The notes under the pieces were generated by a model. It saw nothing but the letters and a program-made list of their open reading frames with translations. It was not told the origin of the DNA and ran no database searches. Shown here piece by piece: positions 3,242 to 34,968 of a DNA stretch of 64,000 nucleotides. Source of the DNA: an uncultured Actinomycetes bacterium (lineage in GTDB: Bacteria; Actinomycetota; Acidimicrobiia; IMCC26256; PALSA-610); the NCBI GenBank assembly GCA_963841215.1, contig CAWJBW010000003.1:680269-744268 (forward strand), written 5' to 3'. A program made the position numbers and the translations under genes. Position 1 is the first letter of the stretch; each line of letters begins with the position of its first letter.

Positions 3242-6477
<3,236 letters not shown>

Positions 6478-14287: not shown

Positions 14288-14371
14288 GTCGGAGTGGCGG
14301 AATAGGCAGACGCGCTAGGTTGAGGGCCTAGTGCCCGCAAGGGCGTGGGGGTTCAAGTCCCCCCTCCGACA
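14288..14371 (+). tRNA. tRNA-Leu, anticodon GAG (type II, long variable arm); CCA not encoded
   Basis: Hand-folded cloverleaf: acceptor GTCGGAG/CTCCGAC plus discriminator A; anticodon stem CTAGG/CCTAG with loop TTGAGGG (anticodon GAG, G37); variable arm TGCCCGCAAGGGCGT; T arm GGGGG-TTCAAGT-CCCCC. Confidence 0.9.
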
Positions 14372-14391
14372 CGCAGGAATGTTCGATCGAG

Positions 14392-20701: not shown

Positions 20702-21972
20702 ATGTCTCGCTTTCCCAAACCGCCCGAGGGCTCGTGGACCGAGCACTACCCCGAGCTCGGAACGCAGCCCGTCGCGTACGAGGACTCGATCTCGCCCGAG
20801 ATCTACGAGCTCGAGCGAGAAGCAATCTTCAAGCGGGCCTGGCTGAACGTCGGCCGCGTCGAACAGATACCGCGGACCGGCAGTTACTTCACCAAAGAGC
20901 TCGCGGTCGCGAGCACATCGATCATCGTCGTGCGCGACCGCGACGGCGCGGTCAATGCGTTCCACAACGTCTGCCGGCACCGCGGCAACAAGCTGGTGTG
21001 GAGCGACGATCCGCGCGCCGAGACACAAGGCACCTTTCGGCAATTCGTCTGCAAGTACCACGGCTGGCGCTACGACCTCGACGGCAGCCTGTCCTTCGTG
21101 CAACAAGAGGACGAGTTCTTCGACCTCGACAAGAGCTGTCACGGACTGGTGCCCGTGCACTGCGACGTGTGGGCCGGCTTCATCTTCGTCAACCTTGCGC
21201 CCGAGCCCGAACAATCGCTGCACGAGTTTCTCGGCCCGATGATCACCGCGCTCGAGGGATATCCGTTCGAACAGATGACGGAGCGATTCGCGTATCGCAC
21301 GGACGTGCGCGCGAACTGGAAGCTCTTCATGGACGCGTTCGCGGAGTTCTACCACGCACCGGTCCTGCACGCGAAGCAGTCACGGGAGCGCTACGCGGCC
21401 GCCGGCGAGAAGTACGGCTTCGAAGCGCCGCACTATCGCATCGAAGCACCACACCGGCTCGTCAGCACGTCGGGTGTGCGCAACTGGGAGATGGGCGACG
21501 ACGCGGTCAAGCCGTCGGAAGTCCTGACGCGCGGCGGATTGTTCGGCCCGTGGGACAAGCCCGACCTCGGCGAGATGCCGCCCGGCCTGAACCCAGGGCG
21601 CTGCAAACCGTGGGGACTCGACTCGTTCCAGCTGTTCCCGAACTTCGTCATCCTGATCTGGAACCAGGGCTGGTACCTCACGTACAACTACTGGCCGACG
21701 TCGTACAACACGCACACCTTCGAGGGGAACGTGTACTTCCTGCCCGCGCAGACGGCACGGGAACGCGTCGCGCACGAGATGACGGCCGTGACGTTCAAGG
21801 AGTTCGCGCTGCAGGACGGCAACACGCTCGAAGCGACGCAGGTGTCGTTGGAAACGCGGGCGGTCGATCACTTTCATCTCAACGACCAGGAAGTGCTGTT
21901 GCGCCACCTGCACAAGGTCGCCGGCGACTGGGTCGACGACTACCAGCACGCGCCGCGAGGGCACGCGCATGA
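20702..21972 (+). CDS. Rieske [2Fe-2S] oxygenase, alpha-subunit type (copy 2); stop apparently lost by a late frame change
   Basis: CRHRGNKL...CKYHGWRY with a full-length match to copy 1. The literal ORF runs on to 24304 through three downstream genes. By analogy with copy 1 the gene should end at the ATGA junction near 21969-21972. Confidence 0.8.
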
Positions 21973-24309: not shown

Positions 24310-24650
24310 ATGGACCTCGAGTTCTCCGACGAGCAGGCGGCGCTGCGCGACAACGTCCGATCTGTGATCGCTCGCGTGTGCCCGCCCTCGGTGGCGCGCG
24401 GGATGTTCGAAGGACAGCCGGCACCACCGGCGATCTGGAACACGATGGTCGACCTCGACTGGCCGGGACTCGCCATCGCCGAGGACCTTGGTGGACTTGG
24501 CTCGACGTTCGTGGAGCTGGCGATCGTCGCCGAGGAACTCGGGCGCGCCACGGTCCCGAGTCTGCGCGCCCGCCTTCGTAGCCTCTCCGAGCGCGGCGCG
24601 CTCGACCACATGCGCGAGCTGCTTTGCAAACGCCGTCGACGGTGCGAGCA
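24310..24650 (+). pseudogene. acyl-CoA dehydrogenase, N-terminal fragment only (3'-truncated)
   Basis: MDLEFSDEQAALRDNVRSVIARVCPP...WNTMVDLDWPGLAIAEDLGGLGSTFVELAIVAEELGRA is a typical ACAD N-terminal domain. No middle or C-terminal domain follows; the sequence runs into repeat module A. Confidence 0.65.
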
Positions 24651-24794
24651 GATGACCCCATGTCGGCCTTTGTGCGCTGGTCGGAGCGGGCTCCCACGAG
24701 ACCAACATCCCATTGCCGGAAGCGAGTGCCGCCCTTCTCTGATTAGGGCTATGCCGGCGGAGTCGACCGGAGTCGGTACCGGTAATCACGGGCC

Positions 24795-25292
24795 TCATCG
24801 ACCCTCTCGCTCGAAGCGGCTCGAGTACGGGTTGCTGTCCTCTGTCCACGCTCTCGACCAGTGGGCGACGGCGTTGCCGAGGAACAGGCTCGCCCGTTTC
24901 CAGCCGTAGTCCGGGCTCGCCGCAGCCGCCACCGCGCGCTCAGCGAGATCAGGTACCGCTGCGATCGCTCGGCGGAGATCCTCGTGATTGAGGAAGGCGC
25001 CATCGGCGTCCTCGATCGCCCTCGCGAGTACCGGCCAGGTGAGCTCGGACGGCATCACTGCATCCCGCTTCGCTCGCGACCGCCGTCGCAGGCTCGAAGT
25101 TGGCGGCTTCGGACGTCGAGGCGCGCACAAGCCGCGCTGACGGCAAATGGAGGAGGCGATCGGGTCGTCGGGATGGTGCGGACAGCAGTCATCGAGATCG
25201 GTCACGCAACGACACGCTACGAGCCTTGTGGCGAGCCGCCGGTTGGCTTCGCCCAGCGTGTCCCAGCAGCGGTGGCCGCGACAGCTAGTCAC
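24795..25292 (-). CDS. hypothetical Cys-rich protein encoded by repeat module A (C-terminally truncated relative to copy B)
   Basis: ORF ...SCRGHRCWDTLGEANRRLATRLVACRCVTDLDDCCPHHPDDP...MPSELTWPVLARAIEDADGAFLNHEDLRRAIAAVPDLAERAVAAAASPDYGWKRASLFLGNAVAHWSRAWTEDSNPYSSRFEREG. No family recognised. Confidence 0.45.
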   Translation of the reverse strand: MTSCRGHRCWDTLGEANRRLATRLVACRCVTDLDDCCPHHPDDPIASSICRQRGLCAPRRPKPPTSSLRRRSRAKRDAVMPSELTWPVLARAIEDADGAFLNHEDLRRAIAAVPDLAERAVAAAASPDYGWKRASLFLGNAVAHWSRAWTEDSNPYSSRFEREGR

Positions 25293-25346
25293 GCCGCGAG
25301 GTCGACTGAGCCTTGCCAGAGCAACGCTCTACGGAACGGAGTAATC

Positions 25347-25359
25347 GCCCCTCCGACAC
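25347..25359 (+). repeat. tRNA-Leu 3'-end direct repeat, copy 2 (GCCCCTCCGACAC)
   Basis: 12/12 identity to tRNA positions 14361-14372, same orientation. Confidence 0.85.
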
Positions 25360-26608: not shown

Positions 26609-27010
26609 ATGGCTGATACGCAGATCCAACGCTTCAACCCGGTGCTCCGCTACGACGACGGCGAGAAGGCGATGGCATTCCTCGAGGAAGCCTTCGGGTT
26701 CGAGCCCGGGCCGGTTCACCGCTCGCCCGACGGCGTGATCGTCCACGCCGAGATGGCGCTTTGCGGGCAGTACATCGGCTTGTCGGAGCGTGCGAAGAGC
26801 GAGAAGACGATCTTCGACCTCGGTCCCTGCGTCGTCTACGTGGTGCTCGACGACGATGCGGCGATCGACGCGATGCACGCGCGAGCAGCCTCGGCAGGAG
26901 CCGAGATCGTCATGGAGCCACAGGATCAGGACTACGGCTCGCGTGACTTCTCGGCGCGCGACCCCGAAGGCTTCGTCTGGGCGTTCGGGACGTACCGGCC
27001 GGGGACGTAG
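26609..27010 (+). CDS. VOC (glyoxalase/bleomycin-resistance) family protein
   Basis: MADTQIQRFNPVLRYDDGEKAMAFLEEAFGF...VHAEM...DYGSRDFSARDPEGFVWAFGTY; intact 133 aa. Confidence 0.8.
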   Translation: MADTQIQRFNPVLRYDDGEKAMAFLEEAFGFEPGPVHRSPDGVIVHAEMALCGQYIGLSERAKSEKTIFDLGPCVVYVVLDDDAAIDAMHARAASAGAEIVMEPQDQDYGSRDFSARDPEGFVWAFGTYRPGT

Positions 27011-27029
27011 GGGAATCGAGCACCGCGCG

Positions 27030-27170
27030 ATCGTCGTCCGCGGCTCACGCAGCGGCCGGAAGGTTGCGCGCATCTCCTCCGAGAAGAGCTCCGGTTGCTC
27101 CCAGGCGGCGAAAATGGCCGCCGTTGCCGATCGCGGCCTCGAGGTCGAGCCAGCCGGTCCATCGGTCGCG
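27030..27170 (-). pseudogene. epoxide hydrolase C-terminal remnant (paralogous to the 3' end of 31383..32603)
   Basis: Reverse frames give WLDLEAAIGNGGHF / AAWEQPELFSEEMRATFRPL, matching YFNEVDKGGHFAAWEEPRLFSDELRSAFRPL of the intact gene. The 5' truncation point abuts repeat copy 3. Confidence 0.6.
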
Positions 27171-27189
27171 TGTACTTAGGGTTTGTGGC

Positions 27190-27202
27190 GCCCCTCCGAC
27201 AC
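27190..27202 (+). repeat. tRNA-Leu 3'-end direct repeat, copy 3 (GCCCCTCCGACAC)
   Basis: 12/12 identity to the tRNA 3' end, same orientation. Confidence 0.85.
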
Positions 27203-27385
27203 GCAATTGAGTAGGGGCTTTGGCCCTCTGGTCATGACCGCTACGACGCTGTGCTTGCGGATCGCACGCGACGCGCGACAGGACATCACGGTTGCCGGCA
27301 TTCGTCGTCGGCGCGTCGTGCGAAGGAGGCTCGGCGAGGTTGATGACGCTCCCCGATCCGGCGCAGCCGAGCGCCACGCCGCGTG

Positions 27386-27760
27386 CTACGCGGCGCGTGG
27401 CTGCAGGATTGCCACGCGACCGTCGGATTGGCGGACTGCTTCGATGAGCAAACGGTTTTCGGGCGTTAGGAGTCTCGGTGCATCGGGAGCACCTGTGATG
27501 GCACGCGTGAGTTCCGCCACGAGGGAGTGCACCTTCCGAGCTGACGCCAGTTGCTCGGCTTGATGTTGGATAGGCCAGCCGAGAGCCTCGGCGTCGTGAG
27601 GTTCCCCAGGAGATTCGCCAACCGTTGCTGTGCATCGGCGTTGGCCTCGAGACTCTCGCTGATAACGCCTTCGAAGCGTTCGAATGTGCCGTTCGGACGG
27701 CGAAGCATTGCCTGGGCGAGACTCACAATGCAGGCACGGCTGCTCTCGGTTTTCAAGCAC
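27386..27760 (-). CDS. hypothetical helical protein (one frame switch near 27570)
   Basis: Two overlapping reverse ORFs (27466..27756 and 27386..27760) join to ...MLRRPNGTFERFEGVISESLEANADAQQRLANLLGNL / EALGWPIQHQAEQLASARKVHSLVAELTRAITGAPDAPRLLTPENRLLIEAVRQSDGRVAILQPRAA. No family recognised. Confidence 0.4.
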   Translation of the reverse strand: MLENREQPCLHCESRPGNASPSERHIRTLRRRYQRESRGQRRCTATVGESPGEPHDAEALGWPIQHQAEQLASARKVHSLVAELTRAITGAPDAPRLLTPENRLLIEAVRQSDGRVAILQPRAA

Positions 27761-27771
27761 GTGGAGTGACG

Positions 27772-28516
27772 CTACGAGCCGAATGACGGTGTGGTGTTAG
27801 CGAGTTTCGCTGAACCCGGCAGTGAGGATGAATCGCTTCGGGTCAGTGAACGAGAGTGACCGAGGTCGAAGTACTCAGCCACGATCCGATCGTCATGCGG
27901 CTCGATGTGTGCGTGCGCACGCGCGAGCTGCCAGCCCCACGATGACGCGGAGTCCCGCGGGTCCTTGCAGAGATTAGGAGCCGTCTCGAAGTGCTCGCAG
28001 AAGAGCGCGCTCTTGAGCGTCGACTCGATCGGGACCGTGCCTCGAGCTCTGGAGAAGGTGCTAGTGCGACGGTGTCGACCGGAGTCGGTATCGGTATATG
28101 CGGGCTTCATCGCCCTCTCGCTCGAAGCGGCTCGAGTACGGGTTGCTCTCCTCTGTCCACGCCCTCGACCAGTGGGCGACGGCGTTGCCGAGGAATAGGC
28201 TCGCCCGTTTCCAGCCGTAGTCCGGGCTCGCCGCAGCCGCCACCGCGCGCTCAGCGAGATCAGGTACCGCTGCAATCGCTCGGCGGAGATCCTCGTGATT
28301 GAGGAAGGCGCCATCGGCGTCCTCGATCGCCCTCGCGAGTACCGGCCAGGTGAGCTCGGACGGCATCACTGCATCCCGCTTCGCTCGCGACCGCCGTCGC
28401 AGGCTCGAAGTTGGCGGCTTCGGACGTCGAGGCGTGCACAAGCCGCGCTGAAGGCAAATGGAGGAGGCGATCGGGTCGTCGGGATGGTGCGGACAGCAGT
28501 CATCGAGATCGGTCAC
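27772..28516 (-). CDS. hypothetical protein encoded by repeat module B plus a unique C-terminal part (frame switch near 28080)
   Basis: ORF 28061..28516 matches the module A product. Its continuation in ORF 27772..28314 (...GTVPIESTLKSALFCEHFETAPNLCKDPRDSASSWGWQLARAHAHIEPHDDRIVAEYFDLGHS...) is absent from copy A. Confidence 0.45.
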
Positions 28517-28674
28517 GCAACGACACGCTACGAGCCTGGATGGCGAGCCGCCGGTTGGCTTCGCCCAGCGCGTCCCAGCAGCCGGGGCCGCGACAGCTAG
28601 TAGTCAGGCCGCGAGGTCGACTGAGCCCTGCCAGAGCAAGGCTCTACGGAACGTAGTGATCGCCCCTCCGACAC
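28074..28674 (+). repeat. 0.6-kb duplicated module, copy B, ending in a tRNA-3'-end repeat
   Basis: See copy A (24762..25359). Confidence 0.85.
28662..28674 (+). repeat. tRNA-Leu 3'-end direct repeat, copy 4 (GCCCCTCCGACAC)
   Basis: 12/12 identity. The downstream flank GAACGTGTGTTCGATC also resembles the tRNA's own downstream flank GGAATGTTCGATC. Confidence 0.85.
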
Positions 28675-28843
28675 TCGAACGTGTGTTCGATCAGCGTCCC
28701 CAGAACGGGCGTAGTTACAGGAGTAATCCCGGGAGTAGGTGCGCGGGAGTAGTCATGCAATCGCTGTCCGCCGATTCGCCTAGTCCGGCGCGCCTGCGGT
28801 GCCGCGATCGCGCTACGCGCCGACATTGCGCCTGAGGAAGCTC

Positions 28844-29550
28844 CTACGTCAGCGCGGGAGACGTCGTGCGGTCCGCCGCGGCAATGACCTGTGCGGTGTG
28901 CTGCGGGTCGAAGACTCGACTGGTGACATGGTGCAGGCGATGACACGCTCACGAAGTCGTTCATTGCGGTCTGATTGCCGTGTACGGCCGCGAGGAGGTA
29001 TTGCATCTTGGGTGGTAGAGGGTCGAGTGTCGCCATCTGCGTCGTGAATTCGTACATCGGCATCGCGTGCCCGTCGCGTGCCTGGTGGCACGTCGACATC
29101 GCATCGTCAAAGCTGCGCCACCCGTCGAATGCGTCACATAGTGCATTCGTGAAGTGTTCGGCGTCCCCCAGAAGCGTCGCTGATGCCTTGTGCGGTGATC
29201 GGGTCTTTGTCGTAACCGGCGTCGCCGACGAGCGCCCAACCGGGACCGAACGGGCGGCGGAAGGAGTTCGATACTGCTCCGCCTGCGAAGCGGGCCTCGC
29301 GTGTGGCGTTGTGCATGCGTGCGGCGAACTCGGGTGCGAGCTCGAGGGTCTTGAGGTAGTTGCCCTCGACGTCTGCCTTGTAGGCGGCCGCCTCGGAGTG
29401 GGGCGACCCGAGGACGAGGAGCGTCAGCCCGTCGTTGGTGGGGAACGCGCCCCAGCCGCGCTCGGGTCGAATCACCGTCTCCATGCCGTCAAGGGGTAGC
29501 CCGCTCCAGTATGTGTAGTAGCTCCACTGCAGCATCGCCTGGCGTTTCAA
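28844..29550 (-). pseudogene. FAD-dependent monooxygenase/oxidoreductase, 5'-truncated and frame-shifted
   Basis: YYTYWSGLP..., GWALVGDAGYDKDPITAQGISDA, then in other frames DAEHFTNALCDAFDGWRSFDDAMSTCHQARDGHAMPMYEFTTQMATLDPLPPKMQYLLAAVHGNQTAMNDFVSV and VFDPQHTAQVIAAA. No N-terminal GxGxxG domain lies upstream. Confidence 0.65.
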
Positions 29551-31088: not shown

Positions 31089-31098
31089 CCTCCGACAC
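31089..31098 (+). repeat. tRNA-Leu 3'-end direct repeat, copy 5 (shortened: CCTCCGACAC)
   Basis: 10-nt match in the same orientation. The flank CCCGGGAGTAGGGG...GGTCATGCA is shared with the flanks of copies 3 and 4. Confidence 0.6.
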
Positions 31099-31174
31099 AC
31101 GCTTGTACCCCCGGGAGTAGGGGAGCGCATGATCCCGGTCATGCAGCGATAGCGAACTGACCGGCAGCGGGAGC

Positions 31175-31209
31175 GCGTGGGGTGAGAGTTCGAGTCCCCC
31201 CTCCGACAC
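31175..31209 (+). repeat. tRNA-Leu 3' remnant, copy 6 (about 35 nt: end of variable arm, T arm, acceptor 3' strand)
   Basis: GCGTGGGGTGAGAGTTCGAGTCCCCCCTCCGACAC versus tRNA GCGTGGGGGTTCAAGTCCCCCCTCCGACAC. The last 22 nt match 21/22; a 4-5 nt insertion breaks the T stem. Confidence 0.8.
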
Positions 31210-31382: not shown

Positions 31383-32603
31383 CTAGTTCACGAGGGTCTG
31401 CGAGCGCAGTGGCCGGAAGGCGGAGCGCAACTCGTCCGAGAAGAGCCGTGGTTCTTCCCAGGCGGCGAAGTGGCCGCCCTTGTCGACTTCGTTGAAGTAG
31501 GAGAGGGTGGGGTAGACGGCCTCGGCCCAGCTGCGCGGGGTAGCCCAGATCTCGCCGGGGAACGTCGTGAAGCCGACCGGAACCGAGACCGGCGGAGGAG
31601 GCTGGCCGCTCGCAAGCGCTGCGGCCAGCGCTCGTGCGTCCTCCCAGTACGACCGGGCCGCCGACGCTGCGGTGCCGGTCAGCCAGTACAGCGTGATGTT
31701 GTCGAGGATGTTGTCGCGGGTGAGGTTGCCCGACGGGTCGTTGTTGACGAACGCATCGGAGATCTTGAGGTAGGAGTCGGTGTCGTGGTCGAGCAGCCAG
31801 GCCGCCAGCGCGACGGGTGAATCCAGCAGGGCGTAGCTGATCGTCTGTGGCCGCGTTGCCATCTCGAGGAAGTAGCCGAAGCCGTCCTCCCTGAACGTGG
31901 CGAATGCCTCGGCGGCCGCGCGTTCCTTTTCGGATTCCTTGGGCAGGTGATCGCCGATTGCGAGCACCGCGGTGAGCAGGTTCAGGTGGTAGCCGATCAA
32001 ACCGGCGACCGCCTGGCGGCCCATCAGGTCCGTGACCAGGGCACCCACGTCGCCGCCCTGGGCGACGTAGCGGGTGTAGCCGAGGCGGTGCATCAGCTCC
32101 GCCCACGCGCGTGCGGTGCGGCCCGCGTCCCAGCCGAGTTCAGTCGGCTCGCCGGAAAAGCCGTAGCCCGGGAGGGACGGCAGCACCAAGTGGAACGCGT
32201 CTTCAGCGCGTCCACCGTGCGCGGTCGGGTCGGTGAGTGGGCCGACGGTGTCGAGTAGCTCGATGACCGAGCCGGGCCAACCATGGGTCATGATCAGCGG
32301 CAATGCGTTCTCGTGCGGCGACTTGACGTGGATGAAGTGGATGTCCACTCCGTCGATCTCGGTCTTGAACTGCGGGAGCGCGTTCAGTCTCGCCGCGCAC
32401 CTGCGCAAGTCATACCCGTTCGTCCAGTAGCGGGCGAGCTCCTGCAACGTCGCGAACTGCACGCCCTGCGATCGGTCGGCGACGAGCTCCTGGGTCGGCC
32501 AACGCGTTGCCGCGATGCGCCGGCGCAAATCGTCGATCTGCTCCTCTGGAATCTCGATCTGGAACGACCGAATATCGCTCGTGCTGTCGACGGTTGTGCT
32601 CAT
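31383..32603 (-). CDS. epoxide hydrolase (microsomal EH N-terminal domain plus alpha/beta hydrolase)
   Basis: Intact 406 aa from ATG 32603 (AAGGAGG upstream): FQIEIPEEQIDDLRRRIAATRWP, IHFIHVKSPHENALPLIMTHGWPGS, nucleophile GGDVGA, GGHFAAWEEP. Confidence 0.85.
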   Translation of the reverse strand: MSTTVDSTSDIRSFQIEIPEEQIDDLRRRIAATRWPTQELVADRSQGVQFATLQELARYWTNGYDLRRCAARLNALPQFKTEIDGVDIHFIHVKSPHENALPLIMTHGWPGSVIELLDTVGPLTDPTAHGGRAEDAFHLVLPSLPGYGFSGEPTELGWDAGRTARAWAELMHRLGYTRYVAQGGDVGALVTDLMGRQAVAGLIGYHLNLLTAVLAIGDHLPKESEKERAAAEAFATFREDGFGYFLEMATRPQTISYALLDSPVALAAWLLDHDTDSYLKISDAFVNNDPSGNLTRDNILDNITLYWLTGTAASAARSYWEDARALAAALASGQPPPPVSVPVGFTTFPGEIWATPRSWAEAVYPTLSYFNEVDKGGHFAAWEEPRLFSDELRSAFRPLRSQTLVN

Positions 32604-34425: not shown

Positions 34426-34438
34426 GCCCCTCCGACAC
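34426..34438 (+). repeat. tRNA-Leu 3'-end direct repeat, copy 7 (GCCCCTCCGACAC), distal island boundary
   Basis: 12/12 identity. The preceding GGTCGAACTCG also resembles the tRNA T loop/stem. Confidence 0.85.
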
Positions 34439-34443
34439 GAATG

Positions 34444-34968
34444 TCATGTCGCGAGACATCGGAGACTGATGTCGCGGGTCATGGCAGACATCAGCGACGG
34501 ACTGTTCGGCGTGGCGGCGTCCGAGGCTGATGTGGTGGAGCCGGCCTCGGTGTCGGATGGTGAGTTTGCCGTAGCGGTCGATGCGGTCGCGGTGAAGTCG
34601 GTAGCCGTCAATGGTGATTCCGGTGAGGTTCGCGCTGTGAACGCGTCGAGCGGTGTGCGTCGGTTGATGCTGCGGTGCGGCCGGGTGTTGTTGTAACCGT
34701 CGACGTGACGACGGTTGAGGTACGTATGGATCGTCTGCGCACCGCCATCGAAGCCGGCCTCGGTGAGCTGCTTGCGGAGCGCGACGATTTCGTCCTCGAA
34801 CAGGTCCGCGATCCGCGACGCGGTGCATCCCATGCGCCGCCGGCTGACCGATGTGCGTGCTGCCGCCGTGATCGTCGCGACCGACGTCATGGCTCTTGGT
34901 CGCTGTTTCTGTGGCAGCCACGCTCGTGGCTCGGCGCCTCGGCCGCGAGCGCTATATGAGCTCGACAT
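34444..34968 (-). pseudogene. IS481-family transposase remnant (internal deletion of the DDE core, plus frameshift)
   Basis: N-terminal-type FEDEIVALRKQLTEAGFDGGAQTIHTYL is fused directly to the rve C-terminal YNNTRPHRSINRRTPLDAF. In another frame comes IDRYGKLTIRHRGRLHHISLGRRHAEQSV, typical of the IS481 C-terminus. The reading frame runs into repeat copy 7. Confidence 0.7.

What the first reader, a model, noticed from the sequence alone, without database searches (positions are those of the whole stretch)
27203..28674. A 1.47-kb unit bounded by identical 13-bp tRNA-derived cores carries two unassignable genes, and its core-proximal 0.6 kb is duplicated at 24762-25359
Segment C is flanked by GCCCCTCCGACAC on both sides (27190-27202 and 28662-28674). 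It contains only two reverse-strand genes with no family I can recognise. The 0.6 kb next to the right-hand core is repeated almost base for base at 24762-25359, again ending in the same core and about 30 nt from it. Integrases of tRNA-targeting elements usually sit in exactly this position next to att. The encoded protein has a Cys/His-rich N-terminal stretch (SCRGHRCWD...ACRCVTDLDDCCPHHPDD in copy A), followed by MPSELTWPVLARAIEDADGAFLNHEDLRRAIAAVPDLAERAVAAAASPDYGWKRASLFLGNAVAHWSRAW. It shows none of the R..HxxR..Y or serine-recombinase motifs. Copy A lacks the unique C-terminal part present in copy B (27772-28060) and is joined to a truncated ACAD gene. This could be a conserved end-module of a family of small tRNA-Leu-targeting elements, and its product a candidate for an undescribed att-proximal function (recombination directionality, nuclease or recombinase). 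That interpretation is speculative.
Basis: partly seen in the sequence, partly recalled or inferred. Interest (0 to 1): 0.65.

Follow-up and report, generated by a model that had tools for sequence, protein, structure and literature searches.

The report
Decayed element end, orphan zinc protein
The repeated 0.6-kb piece is the end of two worn-down mobile elements stacked behind a leucine tRNA gene; it carries one real gene for a very rare small zinc-binding protein of unknown role, with no sign that it is a recombinase.

Summary
The repeats are real. The tRNA-Leu(GAG) 3' 12-mer occurs six times in the 3.88-Mb assembly. All six lie on one strand within 20 kb downstream of the tRNA. The 0.6-kb duplication (24755-25359 vs 28067-28674) is 95% identical.

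The duplicated piece holds one gene, 28061-28516(-), 151 aa. It starts 146 nt from the core and ends where the duplication ends. The stretch 27772-28060 is not part of it, and the "SCRGHRCWD..." extension is not conserved.

The protein belongs to a tiny orphan family of 8 distinct sequences in about 15 billion proteins. It has four invariant zinc ligands (C-x-H...C...C) and a conserved ~95-aa C-terminal domain, and it is under purifying selection (dN/dS 0.31). No Pfam, NCBIfam, PHROGs, PADLOC or PDB match was found. The one homologue with context has no tRNA fragment nearby.

Same-strand clusters of this tRNA end occur in 11 of 61 related genomes, mostly without an integrase. This is a known kind of tandem accretion of decayed (CIME-like) elements, and this scan has met it often on other DNA. 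Interest is modest.

The parts
14288..14372 (+). Intact tRNA-Leu(GAG), head of the array; its last 12-13 nt are the repeated core
   Evidence: ARAGORN; Rfam tRNA 52.8 bits, E 5.9e-09
24310..24560 (+). N-terminal fragment of an acyl-CoA dehydrogenase gene, cut off to the left of copy A
   Evidence: Acyl-CoA_dh_N, residues 6-83 only, E 6.4e-14
24749..25205 (-). Gene 1, copy A: same gene as copy B, with one extra base at about 24801 that shifts the last ~17 codons into another frame
   Evidence: Alignment of the copies; ORFs 24795..25292 and 24749..25003; dN/dS against copy B 0.40 on few changes
25206..25346 (-).
   Evidence: 3-nt and 1-nt indels between the copies; no similarity in L019
25347..25359 (+). 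Core copy closing the 11-kb segment next to the tRNA
27045..27135 (-). 3'-end fragment of an epoxide-hydrolase gene, paralogous to 31405-31469
   Evidence: Repeat family D5, 83% over 65 nt; 85.5% over 83 nt to the same-genus locus L045
27164..27202 (+). Left boundary of the unit: a degenerate tRNA 3' half plus the core ('class 1' att end), shared with three other genera
   Evidence: blastn: 95% over 39 nt to G020, 86% over 43 nt to G028, 89% over 36 nt to G029; contexts
27209..27237 (+). Left-end motif GAGTAGGGG...GGTCATG. It also occurs right of core 28662 and in the 100-bp mini-segment. It may be an arm-type integrase-binding site (inference)
   Evidence: Alignment; contexts
27386..28110 (-). 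Three broken ORFs with no relatives (27772-28110, 27466-27756, 27386-27760). Two lie in one frame separated by a single TAG; the third is reached by a frameshift. Probably decayed or orphan sequence
   Evidence: Frames; no homologues for 27772-28110; no family hits; GC3 of 0.63-0.73 against 0.82-0.90 for most neighbouring genes
28061..28516 (-). Gene 1, copy B: intact 151-aa protein with a CHCC zinc-binding motif, from an orphan family
   Evidence: Homologues; alignment A5; dN/dS 0.31 against L019; conservation confined to the ORF
28517..28661 (-). 146-nt leader and att-side region of copy B, about 93% identical to copy A
   Evidence: (family D3)
28662..28674 (+). Right-hand core of the unit
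31089..31209 (+). 100-bp mini-segment between a 10-nt core and a tRNA-like 45-nt att end ('class 3'), shared with G002 and G047
34426..34438 (+). Most distal core of the array

Best explanation
The 1.47-kb unit is one decayed, recombinase-less segment (CIME-like) in a tandem stack of small integrative elements. These elements inserted repeatedly into the last 12-13 nt of tRNA-Leu(GAG). Each insertion restores the tRNA and pushes the older copy of the tRNA end downstream, so the cores are att scars (inferred from the known accretion model).

The duplicated 0.6 kb is the tRNA-distal (attR-side) end of two related elements. It consists of a much-diverged copy of the tRNA 3' half, a 146-nt leader and exactly one gene. 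Everything to the left of that gene has been replaced or deleted independently in the two copies. In copy A a truncated acyl-CoA dehydrogenase gene abuts it. In copy B orphan ORF debris abuts it.

The gene is real and constrained. It encodes a 151-aa protein with an N-terminal four-ligand zinc knuckle (C-x-H-x6-10-C-x2/5-C), a basic, proline-rich linker and a conserved ~95-aa C-terminal domain ending in GN.V..W...WT...N....F.R.G....Y.Y.

My best guess (inference, about 35-40%) is a small nucleic-acid-binding regulator carried by the element, read inward from the element end. It is not the recombinase. Recombination at the cores would need an integrase supplied in trans, such as the tyrosine integrase seen next to the same tRNA in a relative.
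For: The core occurs only in this 20-kb stretch, always on one strand.

No Phage_integrase or Resolvase match lies in the window. Integrases sit elsewhere in the assembly, and Resolvase has none.

Same-strand clusters of the 12-mer within 40 kb on one contig occur in 11 of 61 genomes, own genome included. A tRNA-Leu(GAG) heads or lies near the cluster in the 3 fetched loci where ARAGORN found a tRNA, out of 8 scanned.

Att-end types recur across genera next to different genes.

Of 9 array-bearing relatives searched for PF00589, 2 have a tyrosine recombinase inside the array. In G018 it lies beside the tRNA in a 10.3-kb element closed by a perfect 55-nt tRNA repeat.

Of 20 GC3-selected ORFs from relatives' segments, 12 match ordinary accessory families and none matches a mobility family.

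The duplication ends 4-6 nt beyond the gene's stop codon.

Gene 1 has 8 distinct family members with C8, H10, C21 and C27 invariant. dN/dS is 0.31 over 151 codons, and similarity to L019 is confined to the ORF.

The accretion model and CIME definition come from passages read in PMC5704250. The tandem ssrA islands, 15 of 31 without an integration module, come from the abstract and sections 5 and 11 of PMC3146451.
Against: No excision or integration was observed. The only possible junction read is one low-depth contig (depth 2.4) that joins a core's left flank to 25361. It is ambiguous.

The 11-kb segment next to the tRNA holds only catabolic genes and has no mobility trace, so its status as an 'element' is inferred from the cores alone.

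A 546-nt metagenome contig (95% identical, depth 3.7) appears to lack about 27136-27816, including the left core. In a relative, then, the unit is not bounded as it is here (breakpoints read by eye).

The regulator role has no direct support. No family or solved-structure match was found. My winged-helix (HARE-HTH) idea failed its test: hhalign probability 0.2%, E 0.34.

The one homologue with context is not next to a tRNA fragment, so the gene may be cargo unrelated to mobility.

With only two copies, the match between the duplication boundary and the gene end could be chance.
Confidence: 0.6

Rival explanations
1. One reading: the 151-aa protein is an att-proximal recombination protein. It would be a directionality factor, an accessory DNA-bending or DNA-binding factor, or a new small recombinase or nuclease, acting on the tRNA-derived core beside it.
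For: The gene lies 146 nt from a core in both copies, and the leader is co-duplicated with it. It has a zinc knuckle plus a basic linker. Arg133, Tyr141 and Tyr143 are invariant in the C-terminal domain. No other mobility gene is present in the array.
Against: There is no match to Phage_integrase, Resolvase, excisionase-type HTH or any other family, and none to a PDB sequence. The homologue in L019 has no tRNA and no core nearby. No homologue was found in 10 loci fetched from 8 relatives, covering their arrays and adjoining DNA and including the two with integrases. The gene is at the tRNA-distal end and is read away from the core. A domain of about 95 aa is very small for a recombinase.
Confidence: 0.1
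2. The gene is ordinary cargo with a function unrelated to mobility, for example a stand-alone regulator or stress protein. The two copies arose by a non-site-specific segmental duplication or gene conversion that happened to end at a core.
For: The L019 homologue sits among unrelated genes without att features. The left boundary of the duplication is not a core. Segments in these arrays typically carry accessory genes.
Against: The right boundary of the duplication is exactly the core in both copies, and the att-side leader is included. The 5% divergence fits two related arrivals or an old event as well as it fits a duplication. The family was not found in 60 relatives, in 400 genomes of the phylum, or among species representatives, which fits horizontally moving DNA better than a host gene.
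Confidence: 0.2
3. The duplication, or the frame breaks around it, are assembly artefacts of an error-prone long-read metagenome assembly.
For: The assembly is indel-rich: pgk is in 4 frame pieces. Metagenome contigs show 1-nt differences at 28049/28050 and 28242. Completeness is 71%.
Against: The copies differ at about 5% of positions, including substitutions, and have different left flanks on one contig. A second assembly encodes both an A-type (...STPPA) and a B-type (...STPSH) C-terminus. Artefact is plausible for single frameshifts but not for the duplication itself.
Confidence: 0.05

Closest known systems
CIMEs and tandem site-specific accretion of ICE/IME-type elements (the ICESt1/ICESt3 model; passages read in review PMC5704250)
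   Same: Segments are bounded by direct repeats of the 3' end of a target tRNA gene. They lack integration and transfer genes and are stacked in tandem behind the intact gene. Related elements share end sequences.
   Different: No functional partner element lies in this window. Segments are very small (0.1-3.2 kb, plus one of 11 kb). Mobilisation in cis has not been shown. The hosts are high-GC soil bacteria rather than streptococci.
Dehalococcoides ssrA-specific genomic islands (PMC3146451; abstract and sections 5 and 11 read)
   Same: Multiple tandem islands lie downstream of a tRNA-like gene, delimited by a short direct repeat of its 3' end. About half have no integration module, and the cargo is accessory metabolism.
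   Different: In Dehalococcoides the integration module (serine recombinases DsiB and DsiA) sits at the attL edge. Here no recombinase is present, no Resolvase match exists in the assembly, and the conserved module is at the opposite (attR) edge.
Integron cassette arrays and CALINs (recalled, not tested)
   Same: Rows of one- to three-gene promoter-poor segments separated by a recurring recombination site. Some arrays have no integrase.
   Different: The sites here are direct copies of a tRNA 3' end, not attC hairpins. The array is anchored on a tRNA gene. No IntI-type integrase is present.
Small zinc-finger or winged-helix accessory proteins of integrative elements (excisionases, directionality factors, element repressors; recalled)
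   Same: Small size, a putative zinc-binding motif, a basic linker, and a position at the end of an integrated element.
   Different: No sequence similarity to any such family. The test against HARE-HTH failed. The fold is unknown.

Membership tests
Tyrosine recombinase (Pfam Phage_integrase, PF00589) | A catalytic domain of about 170 aa that matches the family profile (R-H-R-Y tetrad) | tested here: not met
   No hit for gene 1 or for any ORF of the unit at E up to 0.1-1. The genome-wide six-frame search finds 7 matches, none inside the window.
Serine recombinase (Pfam Resolvase, PF00239) | N-terminal catalytic domain that matches the profile | tested here: not met
   0 matches in the whole assembly, which is 71% complete. 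No hit for the ORFs. My by-eye resemblance of 27772-28110 to a recombinase N-terminus was not borne out.
Excisionase / directionality factors (HTH_17-type and others in Pfam, PHROGs) | Profile match to a known Xis/RDF family | tested here: not met
   No Pfam, PHROGs or NCBIfam hit for 5 family members. RDFs are diverse, so function is not excluded.
HARE-HTH winged helix (PF05066) | Profile-profile similarity of the C-terminal domain to HARE-HTH domains | tested here: not met
   hhalign of the C-terminal columns of alignment A5 against 17 HARE-HTH domains taken: probability 0.2%, E 0.34.
CIME-like segment in a tandem accretion array | Bounded by direct repeats derived from the 3' end of the target tRNA gene, in the tRNA's orientation | tested here: met
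CIME-like segment in a tandem accretion array | No integration or transfer genes inside the segment | tested here: met
CIME-like segment in a tandem accretion array | Descent from, or relation to, integrase-bearing elements that use the same site | tested here: inconclusive
   Int-bearing elements occur at the same tRNA end in G018 and G047, and some att ends are shared across genera. No element carrying gene 1 together with an integrase was found.
CIME-like segment in a tandem accretion array | Excision or cis-mobilisation by a neighbouring element | not testable with these tools
   Only one ambiguous low-depth junction contig was seen.
Zinc-binding knuckle or ribbon (generic) | Four conserved Cys/His ligands with short spacings | tested here: met
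   C8, H10, C21 and C27 are invariant in 8 of 8 sequences. Metal binding itself was not testable.

The most novel reading that the evidence does not exclude
The att end plus gene module is a portable 'end cassette'. Its zinc-knuckle protein would bind the degenerate tRNA-half beside it and recruit or direct an integrase supplied in trans. That would let integrase-less segments of these tRNA-Leu arrays be excised, reshuffled or captured. It would be a new class of att-site accessory factor and a mechanism for integron-like cassette traffic at tRNA genes.
Probability: 0.07. Interest if true: 0.65.

Novelty: new member of a known kind. Interest (0 to 1): 0.3.

Why it matters
The array adds another clear case of tRNA genes serving as stacking sites for small, integrase-less gene segments. 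This time the lineage is a little-studied high-GC soil group, and the same tRNA-Leu(GAG) end is clustered in at least 11 of 61 related genomes. This scan has met such arrays repeatedly on other DNA, so the array itself is not new.

The one item with its own value is the protein. It belongs to a constrained family with a zinc-binding motif that is seen only 8 times among about 15 billion predicted proteins, and here it sits twice at an element end. If it proved to act on att DNA, it would help explain how recombinase-less segments move. If not, it is one more orphan accessory gene.

The work also corrects the gene model. It warns that frameshifts in this assembly cannot be read as biology.

Tried and rejected
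Recombinase idea. There were no Pfam, NCBIfam, PHROGs or PADLOC hits for gene 1, four to five of its homologues depending on the library, or the other ORFs. The only hits were chance-level (STG at 14 bits; a sigma-factor model at 13 bits).

By eye I thought 27772-28110 resembled the N-terminus of a large serine recombinase. Pfam gave nothing, the assembly has no Resolvase match, and the 5.8-billion-protein searches gave no homologue at near or longer lengths. The idea was dropped.

Reading 27466-28110 through its single TAG as X gave no family hit either.

HARE-HTH idea: rejected by hhalign.

Solved-structure sequences: 4 hits with E of 0.92-2.3, all chance.

Searches for more family members or contexts.
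- 60 relatives: 3 weak hits at E 0.001-0.008, 32-40% identity over about 70 aa, inside long unrelated frames. I treated these as chance.
- 400 genomes of the phylum: none.
- Plasmids and phages by tblastn: none.
- Pattern scans of GTDB genomes, IMG/VR and JGI metagenomes with the tool's own peptide pattern: none.
- My own degenerate motif: 85 stretches in GTDB genomes and 6 in IMG/VR. None passed the family HMM; the best was E 0.0085 at 14.9 bits.
- Only P0014's JGI contig (L019) could be fetched.
- Two of the 8 hits (P0009, P0010) are repetitive low-complexity proteins and were dropped.

Synteny with the two same-genus genomes was uninformative. One breaks at a contig end, and the rest gave only scattered paralogue-level matches.

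Promoter and terminator scan of 27000-28900: nothing. Rfam: only the tRNA.

Read laying. All four runs are low-depth contig sets of relatives. Parts without cover mean nothing. The 28674->34417 joint with 9 letters between looks like multi-mapping of the core, and I did not use it.

Habitat labels of runs (soil, rhizosphere, one bird metagenome) come from small word shares (up to 0.25) and are not used as evidence.

Supplements of the papers were not opened.
Full report
WHAT IS THERE

The window lies in a 3.88-Mb, 11-contig, 71%-complete assembly of about 65% G+C. An intact tRNA-Leu(GAG) sits at 14288-14372. The finding's 13-mer is the tRNA's 3' end. With at most one mismatch it recurs at 25347, 27190, 28662, 31197 and 34426. 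Counting the tRNA, that is 6 matches against 0.19 expected, and 0 of 100 shuffles reach 6. The 12-mer occurs 6 times in the whole assembly, all on the + strand and all within these 20 kb, with controls at 0. A 10-nt copy at 31089 closes a 100-bp mini-segment. Three of the copies (27168, 31175, 34404) keep recognisable, mutated remains of about 35-45 nt of the tRNA 3' half. The boundaries of the 1.47-kb unit are therefore real and far beyond chance.

THE DUPLICATION

The right end of the repeat is the core in both. The left end falls 4-6 nt beyond a TAG stop codon at 28061-28063. The copies have different left neighbours. Copy A abuts a truncated acyl-CoA dehydrogenase N-terminus. Copy B abuts sequence with no relatives.

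THE GENE

A search of 1.84 billion representative proteins with copy A's 165-aa ORF gave 8 hits. Two are repetitive low-complexity proteins and were dropped. Two are near-identical fragments from another assembly. Four are real distant relatives of 135-151 aa. A profile search of 5.8 billion proteins added three more. All are unnamed, none has a precomputed Pfam domain, and all but the near-identical ones are singletons from short metagenome contigs.

The alignment of 8 distinct sequences fixes the gene as 28061-28516(-), 151 aa. This is the same length as P0004 and has the same start as P0004 and P0014. DNA similarity to the soil contig L019 starts at that GTG and stops at the stop codon. dN/dS against L019 is 0.31 over 151 codons. 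GC3 is 0.76, coding-like though below most neighbouring genes.

Four ligands (C8, H10, C21, C27) are invariant, as are A94, N111, V113, W120, T121, N125, F131, R133, G135, Y141 and Y143.

That region differs between the copies by indels and has no counterpart in L019.

Copy A differs by one extra base near 24801. I therefore cannot tell a real frameshift from an assembly error.

THE REST OF THE UNIT

The ORFs at 27772-28110, 27466-27756 and 27386-27760 have no family hits. The first has no homologue at near or longer lengths. Two lie in one frame separated by a single TAG, and the third needs a frameshift. One 546-nt metagenome contig (95% identical over 488 nt, depth 3.7) appears to join the epoxide-hydrolase fragment at about 27135 directly to 27817. 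It skips the left core and these ORFs (breakpoints read by eye). The unit is thus not a fixed entity in relatives.

WHAT THE PROTEIN IS NOT, AND WHAT IT MIGHT BE

There is no match in Pfam, NCBIfam, PHROGs or PADLOC, nor to any PDB sequence, plasmids or phages. No family member was found in 60 relatives, in 400 genomes of the phylum, in the 185,579 species representatives scanned by motif, or in IMG/VR.

The C-terminal domain looked to me like a HARE-HTH winged helix, but hhalign against 17 such domains gave probability 0.2%.

The zinc knuckle, the basic linker and the conserved Arg/Tyr-rich end make a small nucleic-acid-binding regulator my best guess. That is inference only.

CONTEXT ELSEWHERE

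The 2.2-kb contig L019 has no tRNA, no core within 3 mismatches, and no counterpart of the leader or of the downstream ORFs. This is 1 of 1 contexts examined.

The tRNA end itself is a recurrent stacking site. Same-strand clusters of the 12-mer within 40 kb on one contig occur in 11 of 61 genomes, own genome included. This is a lower bound, because many assemblies are fragmented. ARAGORN finds tRNA-Leu(GAG) in 3 of the 8 fetched loci. In two of them it heads the cluster. In the third it lies about 2.2 kb upstream of the first exact core.

Att-end types recur across genera next to different genes. The end at 27164-27202 matches G020 (95% over 39 nt), G028 and G029. The end at 31112-31209 matches G002 and G047.

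Of 20 ORFs that I picked by GC3 from relatives' segments, 12 hit ordinary accessory families and none hit a mobility family. The families include a nucleotidyltransferase, RibD_C, BBE oxidases, HxlR, TetR, SRPBCC and DsrE.

Of 9 array-bearing relatives searched, 2 hold a tyrosine recombinase inside the array. In G018 it lies beside the tRNA in a 10.3-kb element. By eye that element also encodes an excisionase-like HTH, a primase-polymerase, a small terminase, a protease and a capsid protein. It ends in a perfect 55-nt tRNA repeat. No gene 1 homologue is in any of these loci.

INTERPRETATION

All this fits the published picture of tandem site-specific accretion followed by decay into cis-mobilizable remnants (passages read in PMC5704250). 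It also fits the tandem islands behind Dehalococcoides ssrA, about half of which lack an integration module (PMC3146451, abstract and sections 5 and 11). This scan has recorded many integrase-less tRNA-Leu arrays in other genomes. The array is therefore a new member of a known kind.

The idea that its product is the recombination enzyme does not, and the accessory-factor version remains an untested minority possibility.

WHAT COUNTS AGAINST MY READING

No movement has been seen. One low-depth contig joins a core's left flank to 25361. It could be a circle junction, a strain without the 11-kb segment, or a mapping effect. The regulator role is a guess. With two copies and one outside context, the link between the gene and att sites is weakly sampled either way.

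Noticed in passing
window ~5373-6417 (G000:C3:685641-686685): pgk is split into four collinear pieces in alternating frames. The assembly carries many 1-nt indels, so frameshifts anywhere in this window are suspect.
   Followed up: partly
G018:C3:105672-115991 (L050): A 10.3-kb element lies at the same tRNA-Leu(GAG). It has a tyrosine integrase beside the tRNA and, by eye, an excisionase-like HTH, a primase-polymerase, a small terminase, an HK97-type protease and a capsid gene. It is closed by a perfect 55-nt copy of the tRNA 3' half, and it looks like a phage satellite or small prophage.
   Followed up: partly
relatives G002, G008, G018, G020, G028, G029, G033, G039, G041, G047: Same-strand clusters of the tRNA-Leu(GAG) 3' 12-mer have spacings of 0.7-35 kb. 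Most have no integrase inside. Segments hold one to three accessory genes, which gives a cassette-like appearance.
   Followed up: partly
window 34427-34492 and L046:15905-15969 (G028): The 66 nt right of the most distal core are 89% identical between two genera and contain GACATC/GATGTC repeats. G028 has no transposase ORF in the 3 kb that follow (by eye from the ORF list).
   Followed up: partly
window 27136-27816: One 546-nt rhizosphere-metagenome contig (95% identical, depth 3.7) seems to lack this stretch. It joins an epoxide-hydrolase-like fragment directly to 27817.
   Followed up: no
window 31200 / 25361: One contig (depth 2.4) joins the left flank of a tRNA-like core to the sequence right of core 25347. 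It could be a circle junction, a strain lacking the 11-kb segment, or the tRNA itself mapping to its look-alike.
   Followed up: no
window 28700-28770, 31099-31150, 27209-27237: GGGAGTAG-type words are repeated near the left ends of three segments, and also in G002 (L045, right of 13213). They may be arm-type integrase-binding sites.
   Followed up: partly
L019:140-160 and 1430-1450: The soil contig with the homologue has a 21-nt imperfect direct repeat (76%) 1.29 kb apart, bracketing the gene and a 69-aa Cys-rich ORF. It may be chance.
   Followed up: no
window 20734-21972: The listed 412-aa ORF over the second Rieske oxygenase has GC3 of 0.41 and GC1 of 0.88. It is read in the wrong frame, so the true gene lies in another frame or is broken by indels.
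   Followed up: no
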